Origin: an uncultured virus (IMG/VR IMGVR_UViG_3300025131_000022)
Lineage: Duplodnaviria; Heunggongvirae; Uroviricota; Caudoviricetes
Length of the DNA: 20,000 nucleotides
Direction: 5' to 3' (one strand)
IMG/VR virus record: IMGVR_UViG_3300025131_000022
The notes below the pieces were generated by a model. That model was given only the letters and a program-made list of their open reading frames with translations. It was not told where the DNA came from and did not search any database. Within the stretch, counting starts at the first letter, position 1. Each line of letters starts with the position of its first letter. Positions 1,464 to 15,831 of this stretch are shown here, piece by piece. The translations under genes were made by a program, and so were the position numbers.

Positions 1464-1472
1464 TTTAACTTT

Positions 1473-4400
1473 TTAATATCCCATCCCACCTGTTGGTGCT
1501 GACACTACAGGTGCCGCTGAGGTAGGTGCTGGGGTTCCACCACGAATTACTATATTTGTACCAGTTTCACCGTTATCGTCACCTAAATTATAATTTTTTA
1601 ACCATTTTAAATCTCTTATATTTAATTCTTTAAGGCCATCAACACACAAAAGATTATGTGTACTACCTTTTTTAACATGTATAGATTTGGCTGTAAATTC
1701 TTTTTTATTACTATAAAATTTATCCGCTAATATATTAGTTTCTTTACCTAATAATGCACTTCCAAAAATACTTCCTTTATTATTAATATTATAAGAATTT
1801 GCATAACTCGATAATGGTATAGTTTGATTCTCATTATTTAATAAATTATTATAATAGGGAGTGTTTGGTTGTGGAGGTGTGGGCATTCCCATCATTCTTG
1901 CAGAATTACTAAATAATGGGATTGGGTATCCTGTAAATGCACTACTAGAAACCGATAGGGTGCTAGTTAACACGCTTTGTAAACTGGTTCCTGTTACACT
2001 AAAACATCTATAAACAAACTTATCTCTATGGAATACTGAATTTTGTACTTTCATACCACTCGTCCATAGAGTAGTAGCTGGTATCATTTGTTCTACTATT
2101 TTTACCCAATAATCCCCTAAGGATTGTACATAATCAATCATTTTATTATAAGTGTATTGATTATTTTCACCACAATTTGTATGTAAATAATCTAAATATA
2201 TTTGTTGTAGTGTAGGGTATCCTCCTGTTTTTCCATCATTAATGGTCATCCTATTTTTTGCGTCAATAAAAACTTTCCAAAAATGTTCTTTAAATGTTTT
2301 AAAATCTATAGTTTTTGCATTAAATTGTGGGTTGGTGGAATCCCATTGTCCTCCCACATGTGGATATGGTAATGGTAATGACCCCCCGCTAAAAAAACAA
2401 TCTGATTGAGCTGACTGTTTCCAAATATCATAAGTAATTCCTTGACCTATATTTAAATTTAAGTCTATATTTTTAACGTTTAATACTAATTTCTCATTAT
2501 CTGTTTGATAGTATGCGTCTCTGTTATTAAAAGAATAATCTCTATACTGGGTTCCCTGTTTAAGGACCCAAGATTTTTTATCATCTATCATTCTCGTTAA
2601 TCCAAACCCAAAAGACATGTGTGGGAATCTTCTAAACCTATCTAAATATGGACATTTCAATAAATTAGAATATTGTCCCATAGTCCAAAAACCACCCCAA
2701 GTAAATTCACTAAATTTATTTATTACATTAGGTGTACATCCTGTAAGAGTAGATGCACTTAAGTCTATAGAGATATCAGATTTATGTTCTGCAGTTCTTT
2801 CAAACCAACCAGCTCCTCTTTGGAAAAAGTAATTGTTAGTTACTCTAGGGACAGTAGGATATCCTGCTGCGTCAATAGGGTAATCTATACGAGTAAATGG
2901 ATTTTGTGTGGTCCCAGTAGAAATATAAAATTGTGCAAAAGGTATACTATAGTTTAAAGTACTCGTAGTATAAGACCCCCCAGATATTAATTCCCATTGT
3001 TGATTAAACTTAGTTTGTACTGGTACATAGGAAGGTATACGGCCCTTAACTGCCCACTCAAATTTAAACCCTGGACTCATCTTAATTCTTGCATCTGCTA
3101 AAACTACATATTCATTAAATTCTACCAACGCTTCCGGAGCACCTAAAAGACCTAATAAAAATTCTATAGATTTTCTTGTTCCTTTAGACTTAAATAGATA
3201 AGCAGTATTAAGTAATATTCTTCTATATAATTCAATATCCAATTCTGTTGGTGTTGCTGAAACACTAGTTCCTGAATATTGTGGTGTATTTACCCCTAAT
3301 ACACTATCTAAAAATGATGTATTGTTTAGAGTACTAGGGGTGGACCACCCCAAAGTCTGTGCAAAATTCTTAATTAATTCATTAGGGATATTATTTTTTC
3401 CATCATAACTAACATTTGTCATGTATGCAATCCCTTCTACAAATGTTTTAATGTCATCAAAACTTCTACCATAAATTTGTAGAGTTTTTTCAATTTTTTG
3501 GTCTGTTCCGTCAAACTCCTTTAGTACTGGTGCTGTTAAAAAGCGAGATACCAAATTAGTTTTTTCCATATCTATCTCATCACCTAAATCCGCTAAAGCA
3601 GTTAAATATGTTAAATAAGTGTCACTACTTATATCAATATTTACATTATCTTCTAATGGCCATGTTTTAATTATTTTATCATAATATTTAACACCACTAG
3701 TACTTTCTTTAATTACTTTAAATGTGGATGTATAAATAGGAGAAATATCTCTATTAACTAAAAAAGATTCTATACTTTTAAATCTTTTAAATTCTTCTTC
3801 CGTTTGTTGTTGGGTTGGTTTGATATAAAAACGGTCTGTTGTGGTTGTGACTACTGTACCACCTGTTGTAGATACATTAAAAGGATTTCCTTTAACTATA
3901 ATTTCCAAGTAATCATTATTAACTGTTTGTGGTTTAACATTCATTAATTTATACTCTGTTTCTCCTACTGTCCCACTAAAACTTAATGTATATTTTTTAA
4001 ATTCTTTAGTTAAATTTCTTAATTTAGCTACTGTTCCTTCTGCTATCTTTATGATAGTATCTGCTGATACTCCATAGGTTTCAAAATTATTTAATATCTG
4101 GTCTTGACTAATATGTTCATTTAATTGATTTCCATTCGTTGTAAATTCTATACTAAATGGATTAGATATTATATTAACATTAGTTTTAAAAGTAGTTTCT
4201 TTAGTAGCTAAATTATATAATATATCATAAGCAGTAGTATTGCCAGAAACATTATTAATATTTACACCATCAACAAATAATGCTGCTGGAAAAAAATTAA
4301 CGACATTTTGAGTTGCTACAGATAAACGTTTTTTAAGGGAACCGTATAAAACAAAGGTTGAGATGTCACTTATATCATTATTAACAAAAACTTCTAAATT

Positions 4401-4649
4401 ATTACTAGATAGTTTACGAGCTAAATTAAGGTTATCTATATTTAAAGATTCTAATGTTATAGGGGTAGAAAAACTACCTATATTGTATTGTAATGTAGAA
4501 GTTATATTATAAGATGACTTGGGTAGATTTATAAAATTACCTAAAGTCATCTGCTGGGACCCCATAAATTGATTTCCTACTAGGAAATCACTAAAGGTAT
4601 CTCCTCCGTGATTAGGGGCCGGTGGATATCTAAATCGATTGCTAGCCAT
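1473..4649 (-). CDS. Putative baseplate wedge protein (P2 gpI / T4 gp7-like), 1058 aa
   Basis: Long ORF with IPNELIKNFAQTLGW followed by YLFKSKGTRKSIEFLLGLLGAPEALVEFNEY. This resembles the P-x-x-L-x-x-LA...KGT-x-x-S/A-I...V-x-E pattern of gpI/gp7-type wedge proteins. A late VEQMIPAT segment may correspond to the C-terminal PA motif of the family. The CDS call is firm; the function is from motif recognition only. Confidence 0.6.
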   Translation of the reverse strand: MASNRFRYPPAPNHGGDTFSDFLVGNQFMGSQQMTLGNFINLPKSSYNITSTLQYNIGSFSTPITLESLNIDNLNLARKLSSNNLEVFVNNDISDISTFVLYGSLKKRLSVATQNVVNFFPAALFVDGVNINNVSGNTTAYDILYNLATKETTFKTNVNIISNPFSIEFTTNGNQLNEHISQDQILNNFETYGVSADTIIKIAEGTVAKLRNLTKEFKKYTLSFSGTVGETEYKLMNVKPQTVNNDYLEIIVKGNPFNVSTTGGTVVTTTTDRFYIKPTQQQTEEEFKRFKSIESFLVNRDISPIYTSTFKVIKESTSGVKYYDKIIKTWPLEDNVNIDISSDTYLTYLTALADLGDEIDMEKTNLVSRFLTAPVLKEFDGTDQKIEKTLQIYGRSFDDIKTFVEGIAYMTNVSYDGKNNIPNELIKNFAQTLGWSTPSTLNNTSFLDSVLGVNTPQYSGTSVSATPTELDIELYRRILLNTAYLFKSKGTRKSIEFLLGLLGAPEALVEFNEYVVLADARIKMSPGFKFEWAVKGRIPSYVPVQTKFNQQWELISGGSYTTSTLNYSIPFAQFYISTGTTQNPFTRIDYPIDAAGYPTVPRVTNNYFFQRGAGWFERTAEHKSDISIDLSASTLTGCTPNVINKFSEFTWGGFWTMGQYSNLLKCPYLDRFRRFPHMSFGFGLTRMIDDKKSWVLKQGTQYRDYSFNNRDAYYQTDNEKLVLNVKNIDLNLNIGQGITYDIWKQSAQSDCFFSGGSLPLPYPHVGGQWDSTNPQFNAKTIDFKTFKEHFWKVFIDAKNRMTINDGKTGGYPTLQQIYLDYLHTNCGENNQYTYNKMIDYVQSLGDYWVKIVEQMIPATTLWTSGMKVQNSVFHRDKFVYRCFSVTGTSLQSVLTSTLSVSSSAFTGYPIPLFSNSARMMGMPTPPQPNTPYYNNLLNNENQTIPLSSYANSYNINNKGSIFGSALLGKETNILADKFYSNKKEFTAKSIHVKKGSTHNLLCVDGLKELNIRDLKWLKNYNLGDDNGETGTNIVIRGGTPAPTSAAPVVSAPTGGMGY

Positions 4650-4654
4650 AATTA

Positions 4655-5575
4655 TTAAAAGTTAGTTATTGTACTAAACAGTTGACTAAAATCAATATTG
4701 TTCCCTCTATTTTGTTTAATTTCAAATAATTGTCCGTTAAATTGGTCTCTAACCTCATATAGGTCGTATTGCATGTATATGTTGTTTGCTCCTGATAAAT
4801 CATATAGAGTATAGATTCCACTATCGATAGATTTTGCTTGATTTCCATAAAGTGCTATAGCAAGTGTTTCGAAATCGTGGTCTGCCATTTCTATATCCAA
4901 TACTATAGGATTAAAGTAAGTGTTAGTAATTATGACTGATTGTCCGGGTTGTCCTATAAATGGTATTGCATTAGGATTGTTAGATGGTGCACTAGTAGGT
5001 GTTAGTGTACAATAAACTAAATTTGTTTTTGAATTTGTATAAACATACCTAGGAGAAGTTTGATTTGGGTTTGTGTTATTTTGTTCTACCGTAACACAAT
5101 AAAAATTGGAAGTAACTATTCTATAAAAATTATTTATTTTTGCTCCGTTGTCAGCATCTAAATATTCTATTCTATACCCCACTAAATCCATAGGCGAAAA
5201 CCTATTTCTAAACTGTATCGGTATAGAATTTAAATCAAAGACTAACCCTTTAACATTAGGTAATGAGGACAAAATACCACAATCTAAAATTACGGTTCTA
5301 ATTTCTACTGGTCTTATATAGACAGTATAAATTCCTTTATTTGCGAAAACTGCTGCTGGTAATTTAAAGTCATATAATCCACCTAAAATCTCACCTGTAG
5401 GCCCTCCTGTAGGAGCGCCGTTGTGAAGTATGGGTGTCAAAACAGTCGATGAATTTATTTCAAATACTGTAGGTGTTGAACTAGCGTCTCTATCTGCTTG
5501 TTGGTGTACTAAAATTTGTACGTCTTCGACTTTTACATCAGCTGGTCTTTTAATTCCGTATGCTCCTAATGCCAT
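4655..5575 (-). CDS. Conserved hypothetical phage protein, probably virion structural, 306 aa
   Basis: Clean ORF 3 nt after the previous stop and 5 nt before the next start. It ends in tandem TAA TAA. The sequence is globular and beta-rich (MALGAYGIKRPADV...). Function is inferred from context only. Confidence 0.8.
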   Translation of the reverse strand: MALGAYGIKRPADVKVEDVQILVHQQADRDASSTPTVFEINSSTVLTPILHNGAPTGGPTGEILGGLYDFKLPAAVFANKGIYTVYIRPVEIRTVILDCGILSSLPNVKGLVFDLNSIPIQFRNRFSPMDLVGYRIEYLDADNGAKINNFYRIVTSNFYCVTVEQNNTNPNQTSPRYVYTNSKTNLVYCTLTPTSAPSNNPNAIPFIGQPGQSVIITNTYFNPIVLDIEMADHDFETLAIALYGNQAKSIDSGIYTLYDLSGANNIYMQYDLYEVRDQFNGQLFEIKQNRGNNIDFSQLFSTITNF

Positions 5576-5578
5576 AAT

Positions 5579-5800
5579 TTATGGTTGTTTTTCTATTTTA
5601 TAGTAACCGTATCCGTGTAATTCCAATTCTCCAGTACTATTTATTTGTCCCATTCGTTGGGCTTTTTCAAAAGCTGTTACTTTGCCTCTTTCAATAAATA
5701 TATTTGACCTAGTTTCTGGTCTTTGACAAACGTTCATTAAAACCTCTAATTTAGTTAAAGGTAATATACATCCCGTCACTTTTACTTCATGTAATGCCAT
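5579..5800 (-). CDS. Small protein, 73 aa; likely the detached C-terminal domain of the upstream giant-protein family
   Basis: ATG follows the only sizeable AT-rich intergenic gap, and the stop is 3 nt before the next ATG. PLTKLEVLMNV...SNIFIERGK...ELHGYGYYKI is a normal-complexity protein sequence. Confidence 0.8.
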   Translation of the reverse strand: MALHEVKVTGCILPLTKLEVLMNVCQRPETRSNIFIERGKVTAFEKAQRMGQINSTGELELHGYGYYKIEKQP

Positions 5801-5808
5801 TCTTCATT

Positions 5809-5823
5809 TTATAATAAATATCA
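5809..5823 (-). promoter_or_regulatory. Candidate phage promoter-like motif (GATATTTATTATAAA) upstream of the 73-aa ORF
   Basis: ATATTTAT at 5814-5821 (minus strand), 13 nt upstream of the ATG, in the only non-coding gap (5801-5872). Single instance in very AT-rich DNA, so weak. Confidence 0.3.
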
Positions 5824-5872
5824 TAACACTTATTTCTATATTATATGTGGTGAATAAAATATTTTTTTCTTT

Positions 5873-6037
5873 TTACCAACATAAAGTTTCTGTAGTGTTA
5901 GGTGGACATACACATGGTATTGTACTTTCACTTAGTTGAATCTGGGCTCCTGTACTATTATCTACACAACATTTTAAACACTTAGTAGGTCTTTCTCCAC
6001 CCATAACACAGTCACATTTTATCCATGACCAAACCCA
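5873..6037 (-). pseudogene. Frameshifted C-terminal remnant of the giant Cys-rich protein (54 codons); alternatively a 43-aa ORF from ATG 6004
   Basis: The -1 frame relative to the 2953-aa ORF reads WVWSWIKCDCVMGGERPTKCLKCCVDNSTGAQIQLSESTIPCVCPPNTTETLCW*. This mirrors the preceding GWSWSVAQCKC and CEQCC...QKLASNANPCDC units. Confidence 0.75.
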
Positions 6038-9000
6038 TCATCATTTATCATAATAGGTGGTATACACTTACATTGGGCTACACTCCATGACCATCCTTGT
6101 TGACATTGTTGTGGTTGACAACAATTAGCCCATGGTGATGGATTCCATAAAAATCCAAGCCAATGTTCACAGTCACAAGGATTTGCATTTGATGCTAATT
6201 TTTGATATAAGTACGAACCATCTTGCTTCAAGTATTCACAACATTGTTCACATGGAGCTACAGGTCCTGGGCACTGAGCAGCTAAACAAGTTGCTTTGTC
6301 AGGGTGTGGACCAATACCATCTTGTATACAATTCCATATACTCCAGAAGGGGTTTGTTAGTAAACATGACCACTTTTCTGGAACTGGTGGATTCCCACAC
6401 GGTACCTGACTACTACTGGTACAACTTACCCAACCATAGTCCCATACAGTTGCACCGTATGGACCAGGATTTCCTGGATGTAAAGTCCAATGTTGATTAC
6501 CATAGAATTCCCAGGTTGCCCCAGTCATATATATACCACAGCTTGCTGTTTGGCCATTAGGGTCTTGTATCCATAGTCCTGGGGTGTCATCCCCATTAGC
6601 AACTGGTGTTGGTCTTTTTACACAACAATAACAACAGAAATCATTAGGGTCTGTTACACACCAACCCTCAGAAAAATGTTGTGTAATCAATGGGAATTGT
6701 ACCCAATTTAATGGTAAAGGCGCATTCCATACTGTTGACATATGAATATCACAATTATTACAATCTACTGGTTGAGGGGGTCCGCATGGTTGATTATCTA
6801 CATTAATACCACAAGGTTCCCACGACCCATTATTACCAAGATTAACTCCTATATTTAAAGATGGATTTCCATAGTGTGAATCACAACCAACTGCGTCTGG
6901 TACACACTCACAAATTGGATTACCTACCCAATGATATCCTGGTGAACAGCTTATATTTTGAATACAAGGTTCCGGGTCAAGGGATTTATTAATCCCCCAA
7001 CCTTTATTCTTGGATATTTTATCTTTTCCACCGCTATTTATAATATGATAGATATTTGGTTTACATTTACAAATTGGGTATGGATGCCATGTTTCTCCTA
7101 CTGGGCACTTTTTTGGTGGTGTCCATCTTGTACATGGATTTATATTAGTTGTTTCAACACAACAATAACAACATTTATCTAGTGGGTCGGTTACACAATC
7201 ATTTATATCATAAAATCCATATAAAGAATTCCATATTCCTTCAAAATCTATTGGTCCTGTTAATGAACTAGCTAATGTAACTGCACAATCCTCACACCCT
7301 TGCACACATGCAGCTAGACATGCTAACCATGCACCAGGTCCTTGGTATTGTGCTGATGAACTACTATTAAGTACACATACACACGTTCCAGGACAATTAG
7401 TACAATCATAACCAACATCGGGTACACTAACACAATGTATATCACACGGCCACCATATATTATTATTAAGTTGTAAAGTTTGTAGTAGAGCTTGTGTCGG
7501 ATTAGCGGGAGATACGCTACCATTGGACCCATCCGCATATAACCCATTAATATGATTATGAAATATTTGACTTGGTGAAAACTGAGTTAGTGGGCTGCCG
7601 GCAGGGAACATACCATCATGCGTTAATACATAACAACAATGGTCATATGGGTCTTCAACCATATCAAATAAACCGTAACCAGTATTTGTCCATATACCCA
7701 TATCAGTACCATATGTAGGTATCATAATATATGTGGTTGGGGTATACGTACCGCTATGAGGTGATGAAGTGACGTTGAGGGTTGCTCCTAAACACTCTAT
7801 CTTACACCTATCTGCTATAGTCAAGTCACACCGGCAGACGCCTGCAGGTGCGGCTGGTATATTATTTTGACAATCCCCTTGAGATGCATACCATCCGAAA
7901 GGAGCTGGGATACATAGACAGCTATTGTTAGCCTGCAACTTACAGTCCCATCTAGTTAATCCTGTATAACAGCATGTATTTACTTGTGTTAAACAATCAT
8001 GAAGGGATTGGTGGGTACCAGTAGCAGTGAGGACACAACTACAAGGACCATTACAATGTGTTACACATTCATATAAAGAAGTGCTTCCTGTATAACAACA
8101 ATTCTGAGCTACAGCTGTGTGACACTCATCTAATGTACTGTATTGCCCATATGGGTCAACTATACAAAGACAATCTTTACTACAACACCATCTATCAGGT
8201 AAGGTAGTGGCTGAACAGCACGTAAATGGGTCATTTTCACAATTATATAATGCATTTAATCCTTGATATGTTCCCATTCCTGCCCCTACTTGTACACAAT
8301 CACATTGAATATATGGTGGTGTACTTATTGTGGTTTGTTCACAATCATATTCTGGATATACTACTTCACAACAATTAGCTGCGTTATAACATTCTGTTTG
8401 TGAAGTAAATCCATCTTTATAATCTGGTACAAATACACAATCACAAAAACCTGTTTGGCATGTCCAAGAACCACAACAAGGTAAATTAGTTAAAGTTACT
8501 TGACAATCACCCTGATTATTAAAAGCGCCTGTTGGACCAGATATAGATTGGCAAATACATGGGTCTTGTGTACAACTACATGGGTCTAGACCAACGTATA
8601 TACATTTATCCCAAGATGAAGGTATACTACCATAGGAGGACCATAATGCGTCACATATTTCTGGATAAGTATTAGCTAAGCTTACTACAGAGCCATTACT
8701 ATCTGTTAGATTGACTGATATTAAATCATTAATCATACTATTCCATGAATTATAAGGCCCACTTGTTAGCCCTAAATTTAGGTATATAGTACTATTTATC
8801 GTTATTGGTGAACCGAATACAGCAAGAGGAAGCCCATTATGTAGACATGGATTAGGATTTGGGGGCATTAAACCTCCATAAGGAAATTTAAGGGTTAATA
8901 TATCTACACTTTGTAAATTAGGAGACCCACCTGGATTAGATATCATATTTAATACATCATAAGACCCTGTTAATGTTAATGCTGGATTAATAATTGTATA

Positions 9001-12000
9001 AGGACCTCCGTAAGTATTGTGAGAACAATCATCATATTGAGTTCCTGGAATACAGTCCCAAGTTGTCACTGCAACACCTGGTGGACAACTTAGGTCACAT
9101 GGCATCCATACTAAATTACCACTACCGCCACCTGGCCATACAGCTACGCTATTATTAAAATCATTAACATAAGCTTGGTAATAAAGGTATGGTGAAGTAC
9201 TCCAATTTAGTGGGTTACCTACTGGTAGACCTGCTGTATCCCAAACACATACATAACAACATTCTGGTCCGTCGATGGAGTCATACGATGAAACCAAATC
9301 TCCTACTGCATATGATTGACCCATAACCCACAGTAAAGCCCCTTGAGATAGTGGAGTTACTGCTTGTGATGTTGTTATCCAGGTTATTCCATCTGTAGAT
9401 GTCAAAAAGGATATAGGACTAGCATTATAACAATCATAACATCCACAACATGTCCCAGCGTCAGCTAATAAAGTAAGACTTGTTAGATATGTATGACAAT
9501 CTGCCATATTAGTAAATGGATAAGGGGCGGCACAAGTTACGGGGGCATTTACAAACGTACAATTACATGCCCCTAATGGTGGTGTACAATCTCCACATAC
9601 AAAATTACATTCACTTGTACATCCTGCTTGGTTGGTACCGTAAAAAGCAGCACATCCATTTCCATCAGTTGTCATGGGATTGGACCCTGCTACATAAGCA
9701 CCAACGTATGATAAACACCCATCAACTGCATGACAACAATATTCTGTTTGGGGTGCTTGACACGGATATTGTCCTGAATTACTTTGTTGACATAGATAAG
9801 GGGATAGTTGGCTTGGTCCAAAATTGCAAATATTACCAGTGGTTCCACTACAGTACTGAGACCCCCAAAAGCATGAGAGCATTGCTGGGTCACCACATAA
9901 ATCACAAAAACCTGTACCTGGAGGTGCACAATCACAACAAAATCTACACATTTGTTCACATGCAGCTTGTGTAGGGAATCCTTGTCCAGTTGGGTTGTTA
10001 CCTAAAACTACTGCATTATGATAATTGTTTGCTGGGTCTGAAGGTCCACCCGCACCTTGTCCTATAGCCATAGTCTGGTATGAGGTTCCTTGACCTACAA
10101 AAAATGAACTTTGTTGGCATGGTTGTGCCCCTATAGTATTATATATACCAGCGTCTGCACCTGCCCAATCACACCACCATTCATCAGGTGCTTGACTACA
10201 CTCACAATTAGTATTTGCAGCTTCACATAATGCCGCATTAGGATAGGTGGTAACTGCGATAGAATTCGGTACAAATTGGCATACTTGTGCTCCGAGTGTA
10301 TTACATTCCCACGTACAGTATGCTTGGCATTGTGACAATGTCATAGTGCCCAGAGGGTTTGGATAACATCCATAACCACCAATACATGGATTTCCATTTA
10401 CTGACGGGCAATTACAGGTTCCGTCACAAGAGTACATATAAGTTGTTCCTGTACAACAATCAACTAATCCTGTTGATAGTTGAAATTGGCAATCTACCAA
10501 AGAAGGGTAAGGCCAATTATAAGAACCAAACGCTAAAAATACGGAACCTGGTGGTACTGGTGGGTATGTATATGGAAATGGTGAATATCCCATCCAAAAT
10601 ATCCCAAAGTTACCTGTACCAGGTGAATATATATCATTTAAATAATCCTGTAATACCACACAACTTGATACTTCTGAAGGTTCATTTCCTGCTGGTGGTC
10701 CTGGGTCTGCACAATAACAATCTGCATTACATTGGTCATTATTTACCCCAACTAAAGGTGTTCCACAAGTAGAGGCTGTATAACAATTATTTTGAGTTTG
10801 CCATATGGATATGTTTGTCAGAGGTGGAGGTGCATAAATACAAGTAGACGGAAAACAACCATTAACAGTACATTCATAAGTTTGTGCACTAGTTGCCCCT
10901 GTACCACAAGGACCACAAGGTTCACCAACAAGAGAACCATTATAAGGTGTCGCTGGGTCAATAGCTGGTAATCTTTCACAACTTACCCAACAATTTGGTG
11001 TTCCATCTGGATAATCTCCATCATCTGGTGCACTTATATCACAATCATACCAAAAACCTGGTTCTCCTGGTAAATAAGGTGATGTAGGACATGTACATAC
11101 CCAACAACACTCAGGTGTATTACCATCACTATAACTTACAGTGTCATATAAAGCATAATTTCCAGCTGAATACCAAGGACCGTTCCAATTTAAAACCCAC
11201 CCTAATCCATTAGCTAGTACGTAATCATCACAAGCACATACACATGTGTCTTCTTGCGGTGCACAACATGTAACACCAGTCGCTACTCCATTTGGGTCTA
11301 GTGGTGCAGTTGGGTCAGGGCATAAATCATTTACACAATCTACCATATCACAATACTCTGTAACATTTGGCCAGTCATTGAAACAACCCCAAAGTCCAGT
11401 CATACCACCAAAAGAGTCTATATAATTTGGGCTGCAACAAGTTACCATAGCATAATTAGGTGGTCCTGCATCATAATTATCTATTGAAGGATTTATTGTA
11501 TAATGACAAGGGTATACTCCTCCGGTACCTTGTTGATTTGCGGCTGTATACCCTGAATTAAAAAAGATTGGGTCCTCTTCACATTGTGCATTACAACATT
11601 CCGGTCCCATAGCTCTACAACATTCAAGAAAATCTGTATAACCAGTAGGTGGTGATTGATTATTAGGCATCGCACCTTGTATCGTCATAACTCCTATACT
11701 AGGGAAGTACGTACAACCTTGAAAACTTGTTCCAGATGCAGGACCACCATCATGAACATAACAGTCCCAGCCTGCATCACATGTGCAGGCAGACGCGCAT
11801 GCGGTAGGCCCATACCATGTGGCGGGCATTCCAACTGGTATTGGAATTCCAGTAGTACCATCGTTTGGTGGCCAGTATGGACAACCTGGTATTCCATTAG
11901 GGTCATAAGGGAATGAGTTAATAGGGGTAGACTTCCATTGGAAGCATCCTCCCCCTACCTGAGCGGAACCGGTACCTGGTGTACAATCACAGAACCAGCA

Positions 12001-14880
12001 CTCTGTAGCACAACTACAAGTATTATTACATGGAAATTCTCCACTAGGACCTGAGATACCATTACCACATCCATTTGTATAACAAGGCCAACATGGGTCA
12101 CATACTGGGTCACACTCCCAACCACAAGGATATGCTGGTGTACTTCCAGCCCATCCTTGTGGGTTAGCTAGGTCACAATCAAGTTTGGTTGGCCACGTAA
12201 ATCCTGCTGCAATAACTTGGTGACATCCGTATTCACAATCCCAGTCCCATCCCGTATAATCACAACATCCTGTATAAACAGGATATGATGCTGTAGGAGG
12301 AATTGATGTTCCACCATTACAATCAGATAGGTCGTATGTTGGTGTAAAAAATAATTCATAATTAAATGCTATATAATCTACAAATGTTGGAAATGGTGCG
12401 GGATTTATAGGTAATGCAGCAATTATTGGTTGTATTAGACTGGCATAGTCATACAATACACCACCTGCCATTATGTCTAATTGACATGACACGAACCCAC
12501 AACAATTATTAGAACTTTGTGGGGTTGAGGTTGTACACGAATAAGCTGGTGGGTTGCACCATTCTTCACAATCCATCTGAGCATTGGGGCCTTGGAATAC
12601 TGGTCCTTGAGTTGGGTCTAAAGCACTAGGATGATTATAGTCTGGATGAGCAGACGTAATTCCTGAACATCCCTGACAAGTATATTGGTCTGAACATATG
12701 TATCTATCTTCACAACAGTCTCCAGCATAAAAATCTTGCATACAATCACCATAAGAAGAATATCCTAGTGAAGTACAAGGTCCTGTAATTGTAGAACCTG
12801 TTCCTGGAACTAATTGACATGCGACCGTAGATGAAGTTAAAGCAGATACATCCGGACATATCCAACTTGAACATCCTATATAATCCCAATATGTAGAATT
12901 TGTAAATCCACTTGGCGGTGGATGAACTCCGTCTGATAAAGCTCTATAACAATTACCAAATTGTCCTACAGTAAATTCTCCTTCAAAATAATTGTTTCCA
13001 TTAACATATGCTCCTGCGGGTCCTGGTGGGCCTGATATAGGATATGCATTCCAAGTATTTGTTGGGTCATGGCATGGGATATGAGTATAGTCTGGACATG
13101 TTTCACACTCAGGTGTGCAAGCTTCCCAAATATGTTCTGCAGGTTGACCGTTAAACCACCAGACTCCTTGAAACATATCAGTCGGTCTTATACCCGCCCA
13201 TAGGTCAATTAGTGTTGGTGTTGCTGCCGTTTGTGTTACATCTTGGACTGCCATATAACAACAACAGTCACCCCATGAACTATCAAATACAATATCTCCT
13301 TTTACATAATTTACATTATCTTTCCATTCACCTTGTTGTGTATTAAAAGCAATACTCTCTGGTAAAAATGTAATTCTATCTATATATTCATCTTTAGTTT
13401 CACAATAAGTACAATCACCTATTTCACATTTAACACAATCAAATGCACCAAATGCAAAGGCATCTAAACCACAACTAGTAGCTTCATATAAGGTAACCCC
13501 ATTACTAAAATCATAAAAAGTTATAGGTGTGTTAGTACCAATCGAAATAGTGTAAGCGGTATAGGTTGGTGAGTCTACTGTTATTCGGCCCATAACCCCA
13601 CCTTCTATTAAATTAGTTATTGGGTTTAATACATCTCCCATAAGGGGTACATCTATATTAATTTGATACCCAGGTGGTAAAGTACCAGTTGATGCAGTAG
13701 TATAAGTTTGGAATGCTCCTAATAGACTTTGAGTGTTTCCTGTAACATCAAAGCAATTAGTATTACTTCCTCCCGCGAATATAGGGGACATCCCACTATA
13801 TTGTAATATATTTGTTCCAGAATCTAATGGTGAAAATGGATATGCACCAAAATAAGAATTTACCCCTACTGGTCCATTTGGTCCAATTACCGGTGAAATT
13901 GGGGATGGCATTGCTCCCGGAGTTGCAACCAATTCACTATAAGATAAAAATGGTATAGTGATTATATGTGAAACAGCTGTAGGCCCCCAAGGACTTTCGT
14001 GTGTAATAGTAATTTTTCTTCTACCTACTCCAGAATATGTATGTGGTGTAGGATTGGTTAGATTTGGGAATTGTAGAGTTTCACAACAAGGGTCACCAAA
14101 AGAATTAATACATGGGGGTACAGGACAATTACAATTACATTCTCCCCAATCTATAGTATATGGTGAATCTTGGAAGGATTTATAGTACCCAAAATCAGTA
14201 GAATTCCATACTTGTATTTTAGTTCCAGGTATTGTAGATGTAATTGCTGTAACAATAAAGTTAGAAAAAATATCTTTTTGTCCTATATTACCATCCCAAA
14301 TATCATAATGCCCTATATCATTAAAATCTTGGTCTAAAAATATTGGTATTTGATTTAAAGTGTCCCCCAAAGGACTTTGACAGTAACATGGAATTATTTG
14401 AGTGGTTAAATTTGCATTGGTTTGTGTGTTTAAAGGGTATGAAAGACTAGAATTAGTCATATGAAATATACTTATCATATCATTATAACTTTCCCCGGTA
14501 AAAGTTTGAACTCCGGATTGAAATAAATTTAATCCATTAAATATAATATATGGATGAGATTCTATATCTAAACAAAATGGCGATGGCCCTGGATTACCTG
14601 GATTACCTATCGGTGGTTGAGGTGCGAACAGTGGCATCGTTGTTGTGTCATTTAAAATTACACATGGATTAGATATGGAACATGCTGTTAATTCTGTAGG
14701 AAAAGTATTCATGTTTCCCTGAACAGCATTAATAACTTGACTAAATGTAGAGTTATTCATAGTTAAACCGGAACAGTTTGGGCTAGTATTAATAGGCCAA
14801 AAATCGGTGCCTCCTGTACAGGGTACAGTCCAGTATATACTTGGATTGGTTCTCTTTATTCTATATTTATATACTTCCAT
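6019..14880 (-). CDS. Giant Cys/Gly/Pro-rich modular protein, 2953 aa; putative virion fibre/adhesin with a PKD-like domain and carbohydrate-binding-like repeats
   Basis: Uninterrupted 8.86-kb ORF starting 3 nt after the previous stop, with no signal peptide. The N-terminal ~470 aa is relatively Cys-poor and has YTIDWGE...HTYSGVGRRKITIT. The remainder is made of degenerate Cys-rich repeats. Confidence 0.85.
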   Translation of the reverse strand: MEVYKYRIKRTNPSIYWTVPCTGGTDFWPINTSPNCSGLTMNNSTFSQVINAVQGNMNTFPTELTACSISNPCVILNDTTTMPLFAPQPPIGNPGNPGPSPFCLDIESHPYIIFNGLNLFQSGVQTFTGESYNDMISIFHMTNSSLSYPLNTQTNANLTTQIIPCYCQSPLGDTLNQIPIFLDQDFNDIGHYDIWDGNIGQKDIFSNFIVTAITSTIPGTKIQVWNSTDFGYYKSFQDSPYTIDWGECNCNCPVPPCINSFGDPCCETLQFPNLTNPTPHTYSGVGRRKITITHESPWGPTAVSHIITIPFLSYSELVATPGAMPSPISPVIGPNGPVGVNSYFGAYPFSPLDSGTNILQYSGMSPIFAGGSNTNCFDVTGNTQSLLGAFQTYTTASTGTLPPGYQINIDVPLMGDVLNPITNLIEGGVMGRITVDSPTYTAYTISIGTNTPITFYDFSNGVTLYEATSCGLDAFAFGAFDCVKCEIGDCTYCETKDEYIDRITFLPESIAFNTQQGEWKDNVNYVKGDIVFDSSWGDCCCYMAVQDVTQTAATPTLIDLWAGIRPTDMFQGVWWFNGQPAEHIWEACTPECETCPDYTHIPCHDPTNTWNAYPISGPPGPAGAYVNGNNYFEGEFTVGQFGNCYRALSDGVHPPPSGFTNSTYWDYIGCSSWICPDVSALTSSTVACQLVPGTGSTITGPCTSLGYSSYGDCMQDFYAGDCCEDRYICSDQYTCQGCSGITSAHPDYNHPSALDPTQGPVFQGPNAQMDCEEWCNPPAYSCTTSTPQSSNNCCGFVSCQLDIMAGGVLYDYASLIQPIIAALPINPAPFPTFVDYIAFNYELFFTPTYDLSDCNGGTSIPPTASYPVYTGCCDYTGWDWDCEYGCHQVIAAGFTWPTKLDCDLANPQGWAGSTPAYPCGWECDPVCDPCWPCYTNGCGNGISGPSGEFPCNNTCSCATECWFCDCTPGTGSAQVGGGCFQWKSTPINSFPYDPNGIPGCPYWPPNDGTTGIPIPVGMPATWYGPTACASACTCDAGWDCYVHDGGPASGTSFQGCTYFPSIGVMTIQGAMPNNQSPPTGYTDFLECCRAMGPECCNAQCEEDPIFFNSGYTAANQQGTGGVYPCHYTINPSIDNYDAGPPNYAMVTCCSPNYIDSFGGMTGLWGCFNDWPNVTEYCDMVDCVNDLCPDPTAPLDPNGVATGVTCCAPQEDTCVCACDDYVLANGLGWVLNWNGPWYSAGNYALYDTVSYSDGNTPECCWVCTCPTSPYLPGEPGFWYDCDISAPDDGDYPDGTPNCWVSCERLPAIDPATPYNGSLVGEPCGPCGTGATSAQTYECTVNGCFPSTCIYAPPPLTNISIWQTQNNCYTASTCGTPLVGVNNDQCNADCYCADPGPPAGNEPSEVSSCVVLQDYLNDIYSPGTGNFGIFWMGYSPFPYTYPPVPPGSVFLAFGSYNWPYPSLVDCQFQLSTGLVDCCTGTTYMYSCDGTCNCPSVNGNPCIGGYGCYPNPLGTMTLSQCQAYCTWECNTLGAQVCQFVPNSIAVTTYPNAALCEAANTNCECSQAPDEWWCDWAGADAGIYNTIGAQPCQQSSFFVGQGTSYQTMAIGQGAGGPSDPANNYHNAVVLGNNPTGQGFPTQAACEQMCRFCCDCAPPGTGFCDLCGDPAMLSCFWGSQYCSGTTGNICNFGPSQLSPYLCQQSNSGQYPCQAPQTEYCCHAVDGCLSYVGAYVAGSNPMTTDGNGCAAFYGTNQAGCTSECNFVCGDCTPPLGACNCTFVNAPVTCAAPYPFTNMADCHTYLTSLTLLADAGTCCGCYDCYNASPISFLTSTDGITWITTSQAVTPLSQGALLWVMGQSYAVGDLVSSYDSIDGPECCYVCVWDTAGLPVGNPLNWSTSPYLYYQAYVNDFNNSVAVWPGGGSGNLVWMPCDLSCPPGVAVTTWDCIPGTQYDDCSHNTYGGPYTIINPALTLTGSYDVLNMISNPGGSPNLQSVDILTLKFPYGGLMPPNPNPCLHNGLPLAVFGSPITINSTIYLNLGLTSGPYNSWNSMINDLISVNLTDSNGSVVSLANTYPEICDALWSSYGSIPSSWDKCIYVGLDPCSCTQDPCICQSISGPTGAFNNQGDCQVTLTNLPCCGSWTCQTGFCDCVFVPDYKDGFTSQTECYNAANCCEVVYPEYDCEQTTISTPPYIQCDCVQVGAGMGTYQGLNALYNCENDPFTCCSATTLPDRWCCSKDCLCIVDPYGQYSTLDECHTAVAQNCCYTGSTSLYECVTHCNGPCSCVLTATGTHQSLHDCLTQVNTCCYTGLTRWDCKLQANNSCLCIPAPFGWYASQGDCQNNIPAAPAGVCRCDLTIADRCKIECLGATLNVTSSPHSGTYTPTTYIMIPTYGTDMGIWTNTGYGLFDMVEDPYDHCCYVLTHDGMFPAGSPLTQFSPSQIFHNHINGLYADGSNGSVSPANPTQALLQTLQLNNNIWWPCDIHCVSVPDVGYDCTNCPGTCVCVLNSSSSAQYQGPGAWLACLAACVQGCEDCAVTLASSLTGPIDFEGIWNSLYGFYDINDCVTDPLDKCCYCCVETTNINPCTRWTPPKKCPVGETWHPYPICKCKPNIYHIINSGGKDKISKNKGWGINKSLDPEPCIQNISCSPGYHWVGNPICECVPDAVGCDSHYGNPSLNIGVNLGNNGSWEPCGINVDNQPCGPPQPVDCNNCDIHMSTVWNAPLPLNWVQFPLITQHFSEGWCVTDPNDFCCYCCVKRPTPVANGDDTPGLWIQDPNGQTASCGIYMTGATWEFYGNQHWTLHPGNPGPYGATVWDYGWVSCTSSSQVPCGNPPVPEKWSCLLTNPFWSIWNCIQDGIGPHPDKATCLAAQCPGPVAPCEQCCEYLKQDGSYLYQKLASNANPCDCEHWLGFLWNPSPWANCCQPQQCQQGWSWSVAQCKCIPPIMINDDGFGHG
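6421..13332 (-). repeat. Seven dispersed copies of a W-x4-6-Y-x2-(G/Y/F/N)D-x-V...CC(Y/W)...W-x-x-C module (CBM5/12 / ChtBD3-like)
   Basis: Approximate copies: 13117-13332 (WKDNVNYVKGDIV..CCCY..WEAC), 12871-13017 (divergent), 10978-11187 (WYSAGNYALYDTV..CCW..WVSC), 9094-9336 (WVMGQSYAVGDLV..CCY..WMPC), 7441-7701 (..CCY..WWPC), 6808-7246 (..CCY..WEPC), 6421-6710 (..CCY..WVSC). Confidence 0.7.
7861..8562 (-). repeat. Tandem array of about six degenerate ~35-50 aa Cys-rich units, (W/Y)-x-C...C-x-C...G-x-(Y/F/H)-x4-7-C...CC
   Basis: Examples: SWTCQTGFCDCVFVPDYKDGFTSQTECYNAANCC; RWCCSKDCLCIVDPYGQYSTLDECHTAVAQNCC; LYECVTHCNGPCSCVLTATGTHQSLHDCLTQVNTCC; RWDCKLQANNSCLCIPAPFGWYASQGDC. A near-identical 15-mer (tcctgtataacagca / tcctgtataacaaca) occurs at 7960 and 8086, 126 nt apart. 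Confidence 0.85.
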
Positions 14881-14883
14881 ATA

Positions 14884-15831
14884 TTAAGGATTTACGTATT
14901 CATAAAATCTTATTGGTTGACCATTGGGTACAAATCCACTTAGTCCACCAGGAAACCCAGTTCCTGCTACACTACCATTTAGAGGCCCTAGTGGTACAGT
15001 ATTTTCATCAAACGTAGTTACTACATATCTATATTTGGGGATAATATTTGCCACATTTCCAGTATCTATAAGTAATTCTACTTTATAATAAAACCATTTT
15101 GGGTAGTTAAGTATTTCACCATTTGTTATTTGTTGTAATGAAGGCAACTCATTTATCATAGGCATTACTTTACCAGTTTTAGCATTATAAAATTGGCATG
15201 ACATATAAAAAGTATCTATCGGTGTTAATTCTCTATCTTTTAACCATTGTATATAATAATTTTCGTTTTTACCTTTTAATGGCACTAAAACTGCACGTGG
15301 TATATATATTTCATAAGAAGGATTTGGTATATCATTTGCTATTTGTGACCAATATTCTACAGGGTCATCGGTCCAGGGGTCTATAGGTACTTCTGTTTTA
15401 AGACAATTATTTAAAGGCATAATATTAGTAAACATAATTTTTTGTTCCTTTCTCCATGGAGAATCATAAAAATCAAATTTAAAAAAACTTCTAGTAAATG
15501 CTTTTTTAGGTTTTGCTAAGTCCTTATCTGTAAACCCTACTAAATTGAAGCTAGGAAATTGTGGATAAGAAGAAGTTGCTGTATCCCAAAAATTAAATTC
15601 ATAAGATATAGAATTGCTCCCCCCACTAAGTCCAGCTGTCGCGGCTATATTTTTATATGCATACCTAGTAGTTTCATAATCTTGTATAACATTTATATTA
15701 TCTTGTAATTCAACTTCTTCCCAAGTTCTAATTAATTGTTCACGACCCGTCTCATCAAAAGTTTGACCTATAGGTATAGTGACTTTTTTGTCGCTTGGGG
15801 AAACTTTTATATTAAATCTATTGGCAGCCAT
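14884..15831 (-). CDS. Conserved hypothetical phage protein, probably structural, 315 aa
   Basis: Clean ORF whose start overlaps the end of the 600-aa gene by 14 nt. It has an aromatic-rich motif FTRSFFKFDFYDSP and ends FYEYVNP. Confidence 0.8.
   Translation of the reverse strand: MAANRFNIKVSPSDKKVTIPIGQTFDETGREQLIRTWEEVELQDNINVIQDYETTRYAYKNIAATAGLSGGSNSISYEFNFWDTATSSYPQFPSFNLVGFTDKDLAKPKKAFTRSFFKFDFYDSPWRKEQKIMFTNIMPLNNCLKTEVPIDPWTDDPVEYWSQIANDIPNPSYEIYIPRAVLVPLKGKNENYYIQWLKDRELTPIDTFYMSCQFYNAKTGKVMPMINELPSLQQITNGEILNYPKWFYYKVELLIDTGNVANIIPKYRYVVTTFDENTVPLGPLNGSVAGTGFPGGLSGFVPNGQPIRFYEYVNP

What the first reader, a model, noticed from the sequence alone, without database searches (positions are those of the whole stretch)
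5579..14880. Probable gene fission: an ancestral short protein split by the giant Cys-rich insertion, with its C-terminus now a separate 73-aa gene
Seen: the N-terminal region ends ...YTAYTISIG...ITFYDFSNGVTLYEATSCGL, then ~7.5 kb of repeats follow, then a separate ORF PLTKLEVLMNV...SNIFIERGK...GYGYYKI with its own intergenic gap. From unverified recollection, related uncultured large-phage proteins at this syntenic position run directly from a YTAYTI...Y-D..G-T...S-G segment into ITK-E-L..V...S-VFIERGK...YGYGFF in one polypeptide of a few hundred aa. Inference: a hypervariable cargo was added at that junction and the conserved C-terminal piece is now supplied in trans, leaving the extension with a free end.
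Basis: inference. Interest (0 to 1): 0.8.

Follow-up and report, generated by a model that had tools for sequence, protein, structure and literature searches.

The report
Phage baseplate gene split in two
In this uncultured marine giant phage, a tail-baseplate protein that is a single chain of about 360 residues in hundreds of related phages has gained about 2,500 cysteine-rich residues at one internal junction, and its conserved last 60 residues are now a separate 73-residue gene.

Summary
The 2953-aa ORF (6019-14880, minus strand) and the 73-aa ORF (5579-5800) match adjacent, non-overlapping parts of the same single-chain proteins: giant residues 176-487 match their residues ~54-325, and the 73-aa ORF matches their last ~60 residues (33 of 73 longer homologues). 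That single gene sits at the same slot, between the same flanking genes, in 80 of 80 related viral loci and in 79 of 80 loci of a more distant outgroup. The fused form is therefore ancestral.

Relatives show intermediate stages. Some unsplit proteins carry inserts of 17-724 aa at exactly this junction. Others are two-gene forms in which both halves carry cargo, from 635|906 to 1253|748 aa. On both trees the window clade sits inside or beside an all-split clade, and parsimony needs at least two fissions.

The 73-aa gene is kept in 25 of 25 loci under purifying selection (median dN/dS 0.20). The locus lies just downstream of gp25-like and Baseplate_J genes of a myovirus of about 300 kb. Whether the piece works in trans is inferred, not shown.

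Three corrections. The 7.4-kb extension is not repeats. Only its distal third is variable. The giant ORF's last module is frameshifted out of frame.

The parts
14884..15831 (-). Upstream syntenic flank gene (315 aa, 'up315')
   Evidence: Homologue directly upstream of the fused or split gene in 80 of 80 short-form loci and in L117-L120 and L201-L218. No Pfam or PHROG family.
6019..14880 (-). Giant ORF, 2953 aa, 251 Cys: the A half (N-domain plus cargo)
   Evidence: Collinear homologues of 2440-2991 aa in 24 related loci.
14356..14880 (-). Residues 1-175: conserved N-terminal strand (MEVYKYRIKR...) followed by a lineage-specific Cys-bearing expansion absent from short forms
   Evidence: Alignment A6. 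No BLAST match of residues 1-177 to the short-form loci.
13420..14355 (-). Residues 176-487: N-domain homologous to residues ~54-325 of the single-chain proteins. Includes a PKD-like Ig domain (core about residues 241-311, window 13948-14160).
   Evidence: BLASTP on 33 subjects; tblastn on 80 of 80 loci. PKD-like fold in the short-form model: Z 8.0 to 4l9d_A, rmsd 2.7, 79 aligned. Pfam PKD hits are below cut-off.
13465..13524 (-). Residues 453-472 (ITFYDF...SCGL): last block of the N-domain. The insertion junction lies just after it.
   Evidence: Alignment A6. In short forms 5-10 residues separate this block from the C-domain. HMM junction gap is 0 in most of the 89 two-domain proteins.
13201..13464 (-). 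Residues 473-560: first inserted module (W..Y..GD.V...CC.Y, CBM5/12-like), shared by all expanded lineages
   Evidence: The giant aligns through residues ~501-563 with 12 of 12 A halves of split relatives. Pfam CBM_5_12 only E 0.1, 13 bits against a cut-off of 26.2.
6022..13200 (-). Residues 561-2953: Cys-rich extension specific to the window clade. Proximal part conserved, distal third variable.
   Evidence: Identity to eight relatives falls from 72-80% in the first 800 residues (the two closest) to 20-56% across all eight after residue 2000. 117 of 140 Cys in residues 473-2000 are conserved in at least 7 of 8 relatives, against 32 of 96 in residues 2001-2953. GC3 is 0.19-0.20, like the flanks.
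5873..6037 (-). Out-of-frame tail: 54 codons plus stop in the -1 frame, encoding one more Cys module (..WSWIKCDCV..KCLKCC..PCVCP..)
   Evidence: matches the in-frame C-terminal tails of the giants of L016 (E 1e-7), L005 (3e-4) and L002 (7e-4). Identical in L001 and in contigs of four runs from four studies.
5801..5872 (-). AT-rich spacer between the giant gene's former end and the 73-aa gene
   Evidence: Comparable to the 50-70-nt spacers in 12 of 24 relatives. No promoter or terminator signal above chance.
5579..5800 (-). 73-aa ORF: the B half. Residues 14-72 (window 5585-5761) are the detached C-terminal domain; residues 1-13 are a short leader with a conserved Cys.
   Evidence: 37 invariant columns in 13 orthologues; median dN/dS 0.20.
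4655..5575 (-). Downstream flank gene (306 aa, 'dn306'), the most conserved gene of the block; starts 3 nt after the 73-aa stop
   Evidence: 55-60% identical to short-form loci and 46-53% to the outgroup. Alignment A3. No known family or solved relative.
1473..4649 (-). Downstream flank gene (1058 aa, 'dn1058')
   Evidence: Syntenic in 69 of 80 and 75 of 80 loci. 2989-3015 aa in L118 and L119.

Best explanation
The giant ORF and the 73-aa ORF are the two products of a gene fission. The ancestral gene encoded one protein of about 300-400 aa in the baseplate-periphery block of a jumbo myovirus lineage. It had an N-terminal strand, a PKD-like Ig domain, a second beta-rich domain ending in YTAYTI..YYDY.DGT...SSG, a linker of 5-10 residues, and a 60-residue C-terminal domain (ITK.E.L...FIERGK...YGYGFF). 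The linker is an insertion hot spot. In the window's lineage it took up a CBM5/12-like module and then grew to about 2,480 Cys-rich residues, and the reading frame was cut. The giant keeps the N-domain and all the cargo, so the cargo has a free C-terminal end. The C-domain with a 13-residue leader is made from its own ATG, 3 nt upstream of the next, most conserved baseplate gene. Shown here: the homology, the synteny, the polarity (fused is ancestral), the intermediates, and purifying selection on the small gene. Inferred: that both pieces are virion components, that the C-domain is an essential anchoring or completing element of the baseplate rather than a mere tether (about 0.55), and that the giant is a long disulfide-stabilised adhesion or host-recognition appendage whose distal third carries the specificity.
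For: (1) Adjacent, non-overlapping hits on the same subjects. 33 of 73 longer homologues match giant residues 176-~487 and then the 73-aa ORF at their extreme C-terminus. HMMs built from short forms find both domains in 89 of 211 proteins, with a junction gap of 0 in most.

(2) Synteny. The single-chain gene lies between up315 and dn306 in 80 of 80 loci (79 of 80 for the C-domain). The outgroup family has a fused C-domain in 79 of 80 loci and dn306 in 78 of 80.

(3) Polarity. On the dn306 tree rooted on that outgroup, the window clade (16 rows, support 100/99) lies in clade A (100/97), whose other 10 members are all two-gene forms. The short forms group elsewhere. The gene's own N+C tree agrees: all-split clade of 19 rows at 100, and unsplit P0094 as sister of split L118/L119 at 99.

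(4) Intermediates. Unsplit proteins carry junction inserts of 17, 37, 128, 182 and 724 aa. Two-gene forms are 635|906, 777|546, 873|476, 932|576, 986|225, ~1030|~1000 and 1253|748 aa.

(5) The C-domain ends within 12 residues of the C-terminus in 208 of 209 proteins. There are 314 cluster representatives at E<=1e-3.

(6) The 73-aa gene is present in 25 of 25 loci. It has 37 invariant columns among 13 orthologues. Median dN/dS is 0.20, range 0.03-0.37, over 53 pairs.

(7) The giant has no C-domain of its own (the single 'only N' row).

(8) Baseplate context. gp25-like (PF04965) and Baseplate_J (PF04865) genes lie immediately upstream of the block, and a sheath (PF04984) and a terminase (PF03237) are on the same contigs, in 3 of 4 records.
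Against: There is no evidence that either product is made or is in the virion; no RNA run holds the stretch. No structural evidence shows that the C-domain contacts the N-domain. In the AF2 model of the fused form the C-domain has pLDDT of only 50-71 and pTM is 0.38. The function of the whole family is unknown: no Pfam, PHROG, PDB or Atlas name beyond a PKD-like domain. The order of events inside the split clade is unresolved. A single old fission with later loss of cargo from the B half and separate fissions fit equally well. The two trees disagree on whether the window clade is nested in or sister to the other split forms. All expanded lineages share the first inserted module, while on the dn306 tree L118/L120 group with the short forms. 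That requires either secondary loss of the insert in the short clade or exchange of the module. Many of the 120 'C-domain only' proteins may be gene fragments from short contigs.
Confidence: 0.8

Rival explanations
1. The C-terminal domain is an assembly or folding module, in the manner of a tail-fibre chaperone, rather than a structural anchor. The 73-aa gene would then be a free-standing assembly factor encoded just after the fibre gene. This agrees with the fission but changes what the piece does.
For: The module is small, highly conserved and always at the extreme C-terminus, downstream of variable sequence. It sits directly after a giant fibre-like gene. AF2 does not pack it confidently onto the N-domain.
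Against: No Pfam or PHROG similarity to any chaperone or Peptidase_S74-type family. In the ancestral short forms there is no fibre to fold, yet the domain is there and conserved. In B halves it carries its own 150-1,000-aa cargo, which fits an anchor better.
Confidence: 0.2
2. Fusion rather than fission: the small gene and the N-domain gene were originally separate and fused in the other lineages.
For: Standalone forms exist, and 120 of 211 collected proteins show only the C-domain.
Against: The outgroup family is fused in 79 of 80 loci. The standalone 73-aa form is confined to one derived clade (16 rows, 100/99) on the rooted dn306 tree. The other 'only C' proteins of 221-1081 aa are B halves that carry cargo.
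Confidence: 0.04
3. The two ORFs are still expressed as one chain by readthrough, frameshifting or splicing, so there is no real fission.
For: A frameshifted continuation lies right after the giant's stop, so recoding comes to mind.
Against: The out-of-frame tail ends in its own stop, 72 nt before the 73-aa ATG. 11 of 24 relatives carry an unrelated 190-213-aa gene between the halves. The small gene has a conserved ATG and leader in 13 of 13 aligned orthologues. No intein or Hint family was found in either ORF, and there is no canonical slippery heptamer at the shift (read from the sequence).
Confidence: 0.02
4. The 73-aa ORF is a decaying remnant left after the gene was truncated.
For: It is short, has no family name, and the neighbouring giant gene shows a real frameshift.
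Against: Median dN/dS is 0.20 over 53 pairs, with dS up to about 1.6. It is intact in 25 of 25 loci. 37 columns are invariant. Its stop lies 3 nt before the next gene's start, as in fused forms.
Confidence: 0.03

Closest known systems
Single-chain proteins of ~310-400 aa at the same slot of related uncultured jumbo myovirus contigs (e.g. P0049, P0064; UniProt A0A6J5L9U6, 'PKD domain-containing protein', uncultured Caudovirales phage)
   Same: N-domain (26-34% identity), C-terminal 60-residue domain (41-57%), and position between up315 and dn306.
   Different: They are one polypeptide with no Cys-rich cargo (0-1.6% Cys). The window has 2,481 residues inserted at the linker and two ORFs.
Two-gene A|B forms in sister lineages (L117, L201-L205, L211, L215-L218; L118-L120)
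   Same: Same slot. N-domain plus the first CBM-like module on gene A, C-domain at the end of gene B, and short AT-rich spacers from -4 to 37 nt.
   Different: There the B half carries 150-1,000 aa of its own Cys-rich cargo and A is only 635-1253 aa. In the window B is reduced to the bare domain and A has grown to 2953 aa. The cargo sequences are unrelated beyond the first module.
'Genes in pieces' of T4-like phages, such as nrdA of Aeromonas phage Aeh1 split by the homing endonuclease gene mobE (recalled; PMC2988022 seen only as a search listing and the start of its abstract)
   Same: A phage gene cut into two ORFs whose products are expected to reassemble. An unrelated gene lies between the halves in some genomes.
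   Different: No homing endonuclease is present. The intervening ~200-aa gene has no HNH, GIY-YIG or LAGLIDADG hit and is missing from 13 of 24 relatives. The gene is structural, not enzymatic. The split goes with growth of cargo at a linker.
Tail fibre plus small downstream chaperone (T4 gp37/gp38, P2 H/G) and C-terminal intramolecular chaperone domains of fibres and tailspikes (recalled; not from any call)
   Same: A small conserved element encoded at or after the end of a very long, variable appendage gene.
   Different: No sequence similarity to those families. The element derives from the C-terminus of a short non-fibrous baseplate protein.

Membership tests
Uncharacterised PKD-containing baseplate-block protein family (short single-chain forms, alignments A2 and A5) | N-domain homologous over ~270-310 residues | tested here: met
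   BLASTP E 1e-5 to 3e-22 on 33 subjects; tblastn on 80 of 80 loci.
Uncharacterised PKD-containing baseplate-block protein family (short single-chain forms, alignments A2 and A5) | 60-residue FIERGK...YGYGFF domain at the extreme C-terminus of the same chain | tested here: not met
   The domain is present but on a separate 73-aa ORF. The giant has no copy of it.
Uncharacterised PKD-containing baseplate-block protein family (short single-chain forms, alignments A2 and A5) | Position between up315 and dn306, downstream of the gp25-like and Baseplate_J genes | tested here: met
PKD domain (PF00801 / PF18911) | Pfam score above the gathering cut-off | tested here: not met
   Short forms score 16.8-20.1 bits against cut-offs of 23.5-27. 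The giant itself gave no hit at E<=0.01.
PKD domain (PF00801 / PF18911) | PKD/Ig-like beta-sandwich fold | tested here: met
   On the short-form model only: 4l9d_A PKD1 of PrtV, Z 8.0, rmsd 2.7, 79 aligned; Foldseek TMt 0.73. The giant's copy has a 16-residue Cys insertion in the DWG loop and was not modelled.
CBM5/12 carbohydrate-binding module (PF02839) | Pfam score above the gathering cut-off for the W..Y..GD.V motifs | tested here: not met
   1 of 6 motif segments scored E 0.1 and 13.1 bits against a cut-off of 26.2, matching model positions 1-14 only. The other 5 gave nothing. The resemblance is a lead only.
Genes-in-pieces made by homing-endonuclease insertion | A homing endonuclease gene between the two halves | tested here: not met
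   The window has no gene between the halves. The relatives' 190-213-aa gene has no endonuclease family hit and is present in only 11 of 24 loci.
Split intein / trans-splicing | Intein (Hint) halves at the ends of the two ORFs | tested here: not met
   0 Pfam families in the giant and in the 73-aa ORF at E<=0.01.
Tail-fibre assembly chaperone or intramolecular chaperone domain | Sequence membership of a known chaperone family | tested here: not met
   No Pfam or PHROG hit for the 73-aa ORF or for the C-domain-bearing proteins. Chaperone-like function is not thereby excluded.
Contractile-tail baseplate module | Linked gp25-like, Baseplate_J and sheath genes on the same contig | tested here: met
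   3 of 4 related records; the 50-kb fragment closest to the window had none of the three. In G005 the Baseplate_J match ends 13 nt from locus L083, which opens with the up781 homologue.

The most novel reading that the evidence does not exclude
This family is a general cargo-display scaffold of jumbo-phage baseplates. Its N- and C-domains would form a natural two-piece docking unit that still assembles when the chain between them is cut. The linker, the N-terminus and internal loops accept unrelated cargo: a Reprolysin-like metallopeptidase, a Fib_succ_major domain, and Cys-rich fibres of 17 to about 2,500 residues. The gene has been cut at different places at least twice. One ancestral gene then yields one or two independently anchored appendages per baseplate site, and cutting the loop is what lets a both-ends-tethered insert become a free-ended fibre. 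If so, the 60-residue C-domain and its partner surface would be a compact, evolvable protein-docking pair.
Probability: 0.3. Interest if true: 0.75.

Novelty: new variant of a known kind. Interest (0 to 1): 0.6.

Why it matters
Gene fission is usually inferred from two end states. Here the whole series survives in related genomes: a short fused gene, small and large inserts at one linker, two-gene forms with cargo on both halves, and a bare 73-residue remnant beside a 2953-residue giant. That makes the route by which a phage builds a very large appendage from an ordinary baseplate protein directly traceable. It also shows that a 60-residue domain stays under selection after it has lost everything it was attached to. 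This points to an essential, still unknown contact in the baseplate of an abundant, uncultured group of marine and freshwater jumbo phages. For annotation, tiny orphan ORFs beside giant structural genes can be detached domains rather than noise.

Tried and rejected
- **Co-folding.** Complex prediction on giant residues 176-491 (alignment A7) with the 73-aa protein (A8) gave no verdict: score 0.01 against a mark of 0.32, with the partner's fold uncertain. This counts neither for nor against binding.
- **First AF2 model.** AF2 of the short form with 21 sequences gave pLDDT 52 and was not used.
- **Fold searches.** Fold searches of the better model found only PKD/Ig/FN3 matches for residues 79-172. 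The domain at residues 220-300 and the C-domain were effectively not tested, because one domain fills the lists.
- **PDB profile searches.** Profiles of dn306, up315 and the short form against PDB sequences gave nothing below E 0.05.
- **Family scans.** Pfam and PHROGs on the eight window proteins gave 0 families.
- **Cultured phages.** tblastn of dn306 and the 73-aa ORF against GenBank phages gave no match.
- **ESM Atlas.** The Atlas returned only unnamed viral clusters, with scores up to 0.84.
- **Whole genome.** None is held for this window.
- **RNA.** No RNA holder was listed among the 21 runs.
- **Promoters and terminators.** The scan of 5400-6200 gave nothing above shuffles.
- **Foreign origin of the cargo from its higher GC.** Rejected. 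GC3 is 0.19-0.20 against 0.15-0.24 in the flanks, so the excess lies in codon positions 1 and 2 and comes from amino-acid make-up.
- **Homing endonuclease as the cause of the split.** Rejected.
- **Programmed frameshift at the giant's end.** Considered, but there is no canonical slippery site, so a fixed 1-nt frameshift is more likely.
- **Literature.** 'gene fission' + 'tail fiber' + 'phage' gave 0 papers. 'jumbo phage' / 'cysteine-rich' / 'baseplate' gave 211 papers with at least two of the terms; in none of the 15 listed does 'cysteine-rich' occur. 'split gene' / 'baseplate' / 'bacteriophage' / 'two polypeptides' gave 15 papers, none on this family judging from the 8 titles listed and their abstract starts.

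Full report
**Observation**

All large ORFs of the window lie on the minus strand. The giant ORF (6019-14880) encodes 2953 residues with 251 Cys. The 73-aa ORF (5579-5800) follows it and ends 3 nt before the next gene, dn306, at 4655-5575. None of the eight window proteins matches a Pfam or PHROG family at E<=0.01. Neither dn306 nor the 73-aa ORF has a tblastn match in 50,697 GenBank phage records.

A scan of IMG/VR with the 73-aa protein returned 25 loci at 65-100% identity.
- In all nine loci that I read in full, a 73-77-aa standalone gene follows a giant gene of 2440-2991 aa.
- In the 24 loci where the giant is in view, the spacer is 50-70 nt in 12. In 11 it holds an extra 190-213-aa gene. 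In one it is 607 nt without an ORF.

A profile of 13 small-gene orthologues (A1) was searched against longer proteins only. It found 73 proteins of 156-1081 aa, every one with the domain at its extreme C-terminus. Thirty-three of them (156-399 aa) also match the giant: its residues 176-178 up to 310-508 align to their residues ~20-90 up to ~140-378 (one, the 156-aa fragment P0059, matches only giant residues 372-486). The 73-aa match follows directly.

The exhaustive search of 1.84 billion representatives gave 314 proteins at E<=1e-3. With HMMs of the two domains:
- 89 of 211 collected proteins have both domains.
- 120 have only the C-domain.
- One, the giant, has only the N-domain.
- The C-domain ends within 12 residues of the C-terminus in 208 of 209 proteins.

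**Synteny and context**

An alignment of 21 short forms (A2) matched more than 573 stretches of viral contigs. In the best 80 loci, tblastn with the window's proteins found:

| Window protein | Loci with a match (of 80) |
|---|---|
| up315 | 80 |
| N-domain | 80 |
| C-domain | 79 |
| up600 | 78 |
| up781 | 76 |
| dn306 | 76 |
| dn1058 | 69 |

The matches are always in the window's gene order. Several misses are loci cut by contig ends.

A more distant family of ~290-aa proteins (A9) has an N-part my HMM does not recognise but the same C-domain. It occupies the same slot in 79 of 80 further loci, with dn306 at 46-53% identity.

Three of four related records carry these genes:
- a terminase (PF03237);
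- a sheath match (PF04984) inside an ORF of 1124-1145 aa;
- a gp25-like gene (PF04965);
- a 616-621-aa Baseplate_J gene (PF04865).

The gp25-like and Baseplate_J genes lie immediately upstream of the block. CheckV completeness figures of 16% for 50 kb, 48% for 156 kb and 68% for 203 kb imply genomes near 300 kb. The locus is therefore the peripheral part of the baseplate operon of an uncultured jumbo myovirus group.

**Intermediates**

At the linker between ...SSG(L/F)T.D.. and ..ITK.E.L.. the HMM-corrected gap is 0 in most two-domain proteins. It is 5-37 residues in several, 128 in P0142, 182 in P0131 and 724 in P0094, all still single chains. P0094 is collinear with gene A (residues 1-344) and with the end of gene B (residues 876-1126) of the split loci L118 and L119.

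Two-gene forms occupy the slot in L117-L120 and in ten further contigs (13 loci, two of which repeat a contig and one of which is partial). Their sizes are 635|906, 638|941, 777|546, 873|476, 932|576, 986|225, 1018-1049|936-1078 and 1253|748 aa. Spacers run from -4 to 37 nt. The giant aligns with 12 of 12 A halves through its residues ~501-563, that is, the N-domain plus the first W..Y..GD.V...CC.Y module. It aligns with 0 of 12 B halves.

**Polarity and number of events**

A careful ML tree of dn306 (73 rows, rooted on 20 outgroup rows) gives two clades.
- Clade A (support 100/97) holds ten two-gene loci and the window clade (16 rows, 100/99).
- Clade B (100/96) holds L118/L120 as sister of the 25 short forms.

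A quick tree of the gene's own N+C domains (57 rows, 359 columns, midpoint root) gives:
- one all-split clade of 19 rows (100), with the window clade (9 rows, 99) as sister to ten two-gene forms (95);
- unsplit P0094 as sister to L118/L119 (99);
- the five unsplit proteins with junction inserts at five separate places.

Fused-short is therefore ancestral. Insertion at the linker is recurrent. Parsimony needs at least two fissions, although one fission followed by a re-fusion is not excluded. The window's bare 73-aa B half is a derived extreme within a lineage that was probably already split. The leader of the 73-aa protein keeps the Cys before (I/L)-x-P-L-T-K and the Cys in NVC that B halves and P0094 also have.

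**The small gene is functional**

It is intact in 25 of 25 loci. It has 37 invariant columns among 13 orthologues. Its NG86 dN/dS has a median of 0.20 and a range of 0.03-0.37 over 53 of 55 pairs. Selection has persisted after all attached cargo was lost. That argues that the domain has an essential role of its own. This is an inference.

**The cargo**

- The extension is not repetitive at the DNA or BLAST level.
- It holds five CBM5/12-like motifs and four C.C..G.Y..C..CC beads at residues 2101-2304. Pfam supports CBM_5_12 only at E 0.1.
- It is almost free of Lys and Arg (0-4% over most of its length, up to about 7% in one distal bin).
- The eight giants compared are collinear. Identity to the two closest relatives is 68-80% over the first 800 residues and 34-56% after residue 2000. 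Alignment coverage collapses in the last 350 residues for some relatives.
- 117 of 140 Cys in residues 473-2000 are conserved in at least 7 of 8 relatives, against 32 of 96 in residues 2001-2953.
- GC3 equals that of the flanks, so the cargo is old in this genome.

**Structure**

AF2 with 108 sequences gave pLDDT 71.3 and pTM 0.38. Three regions stand out:
- a PKD-like domain at residues 79-172 (Z 8.0 to 4l9d_A);
- a confident second domain at residues 220-300;
- a weakly predicted C-domain.

No solved structure resembles the whole protein. The best BFVD hit is a family member named only 'PKD domain-containing protein'.

**Earlier notes of this scan**

Other agents reached the same reading for sister genomes: e1-5836387 on the fission, and e1-5980000 and others on the giant. 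These notes are not independent evidence. I re-derived the fission here from my own calls. Their proposal that the hosts are marine Flavobacteriales was not tested here.

**Verdict**

The fission is real and well documented. The mechanism by which the pieces work together is inferred. No published description turned up in the three literature searches that addressed this question.

Noticed in passing
window 5873-6043 (minus strand): The giant ORF ends five codons after an apparent 1-nt frameshift. The -1 frame runs on for 54 codons (6037-5876, stop 5875-5873) and encodes one more Cys module, homologous to the in-frame C-terminal tails of relatives' giants (L016 E 1e-7). The same sequence is in L001 (99.99% identical over 9897 nt) and in contigs of four runs from four studies, so it is not a single-assembly error.
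   Followed up: partly
L002-L008, L012-L014, L021, about 9330-9990: A 190-213-aa gene sits between the giant and the 73-aa gene in 11 of 24 relatives and is absent from the window. It has a G-S-x(14)-D-I-D-I stretch that recalls minimal nucleotidyltransferases (pattern recalled from memory). It has no Pfam or PHROG hit at E<=0.01.
   Followed up: partly
window 5835 and 6003: Contigs from runs X3, X4 and X7 leave the window's sequence at 5835 and 6003, and one X3 contig joins 5835 to 6003. Co-occurring strains therefore differ in what lies between the two halves, possibly the ~200-aa gene.
   Followed up: no
P0093 (940 aa) and P0202 (522 aa): Other members of the family carry different cargo. 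P0093 has a Reprolysin-like M12 metallopeptidase (PF13688, E 2e-17) in a 640-residue N-terminal extension. P0202 has a Fib_succ_major domain (PF09603, E 6e-23) inside the N-domain.
   Followed up: partly
L118:13643-22609, L119:13747-22791: The homologue of the window's 1058-aa downstream gene is 2989-3015 aa in these loci, a second giant gene in the same block.
   Followed up: no
window 17620-19998; L033-L112 about 260-5500: The window's 781-aa upstream gene corresponds to an ORF of about 1650-1800 aa in short-form phages and 1118-1170 aa in two-gene relatives, so that gene also varies greatly in size.
   Followed up: no
window about 14080-14140 (giant residues ~247-265): The PKD-like domain carries a 16-residue Cys-rich insertion (CNCNCPVPPCINSFGDPCC) in the loop after DWG. 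It is seen only in the window and its closest relative L005 among the 14 sequences aligned.
   Followed up: no
window 5579-5581 / 5575: The 73-aa gene's stop is 3 nt from the ATG of dn306. The same tight spacing holds for the fused gene in short-form loci, which hints at coupled expression of the C-domain and dn306.
   Followed up: no
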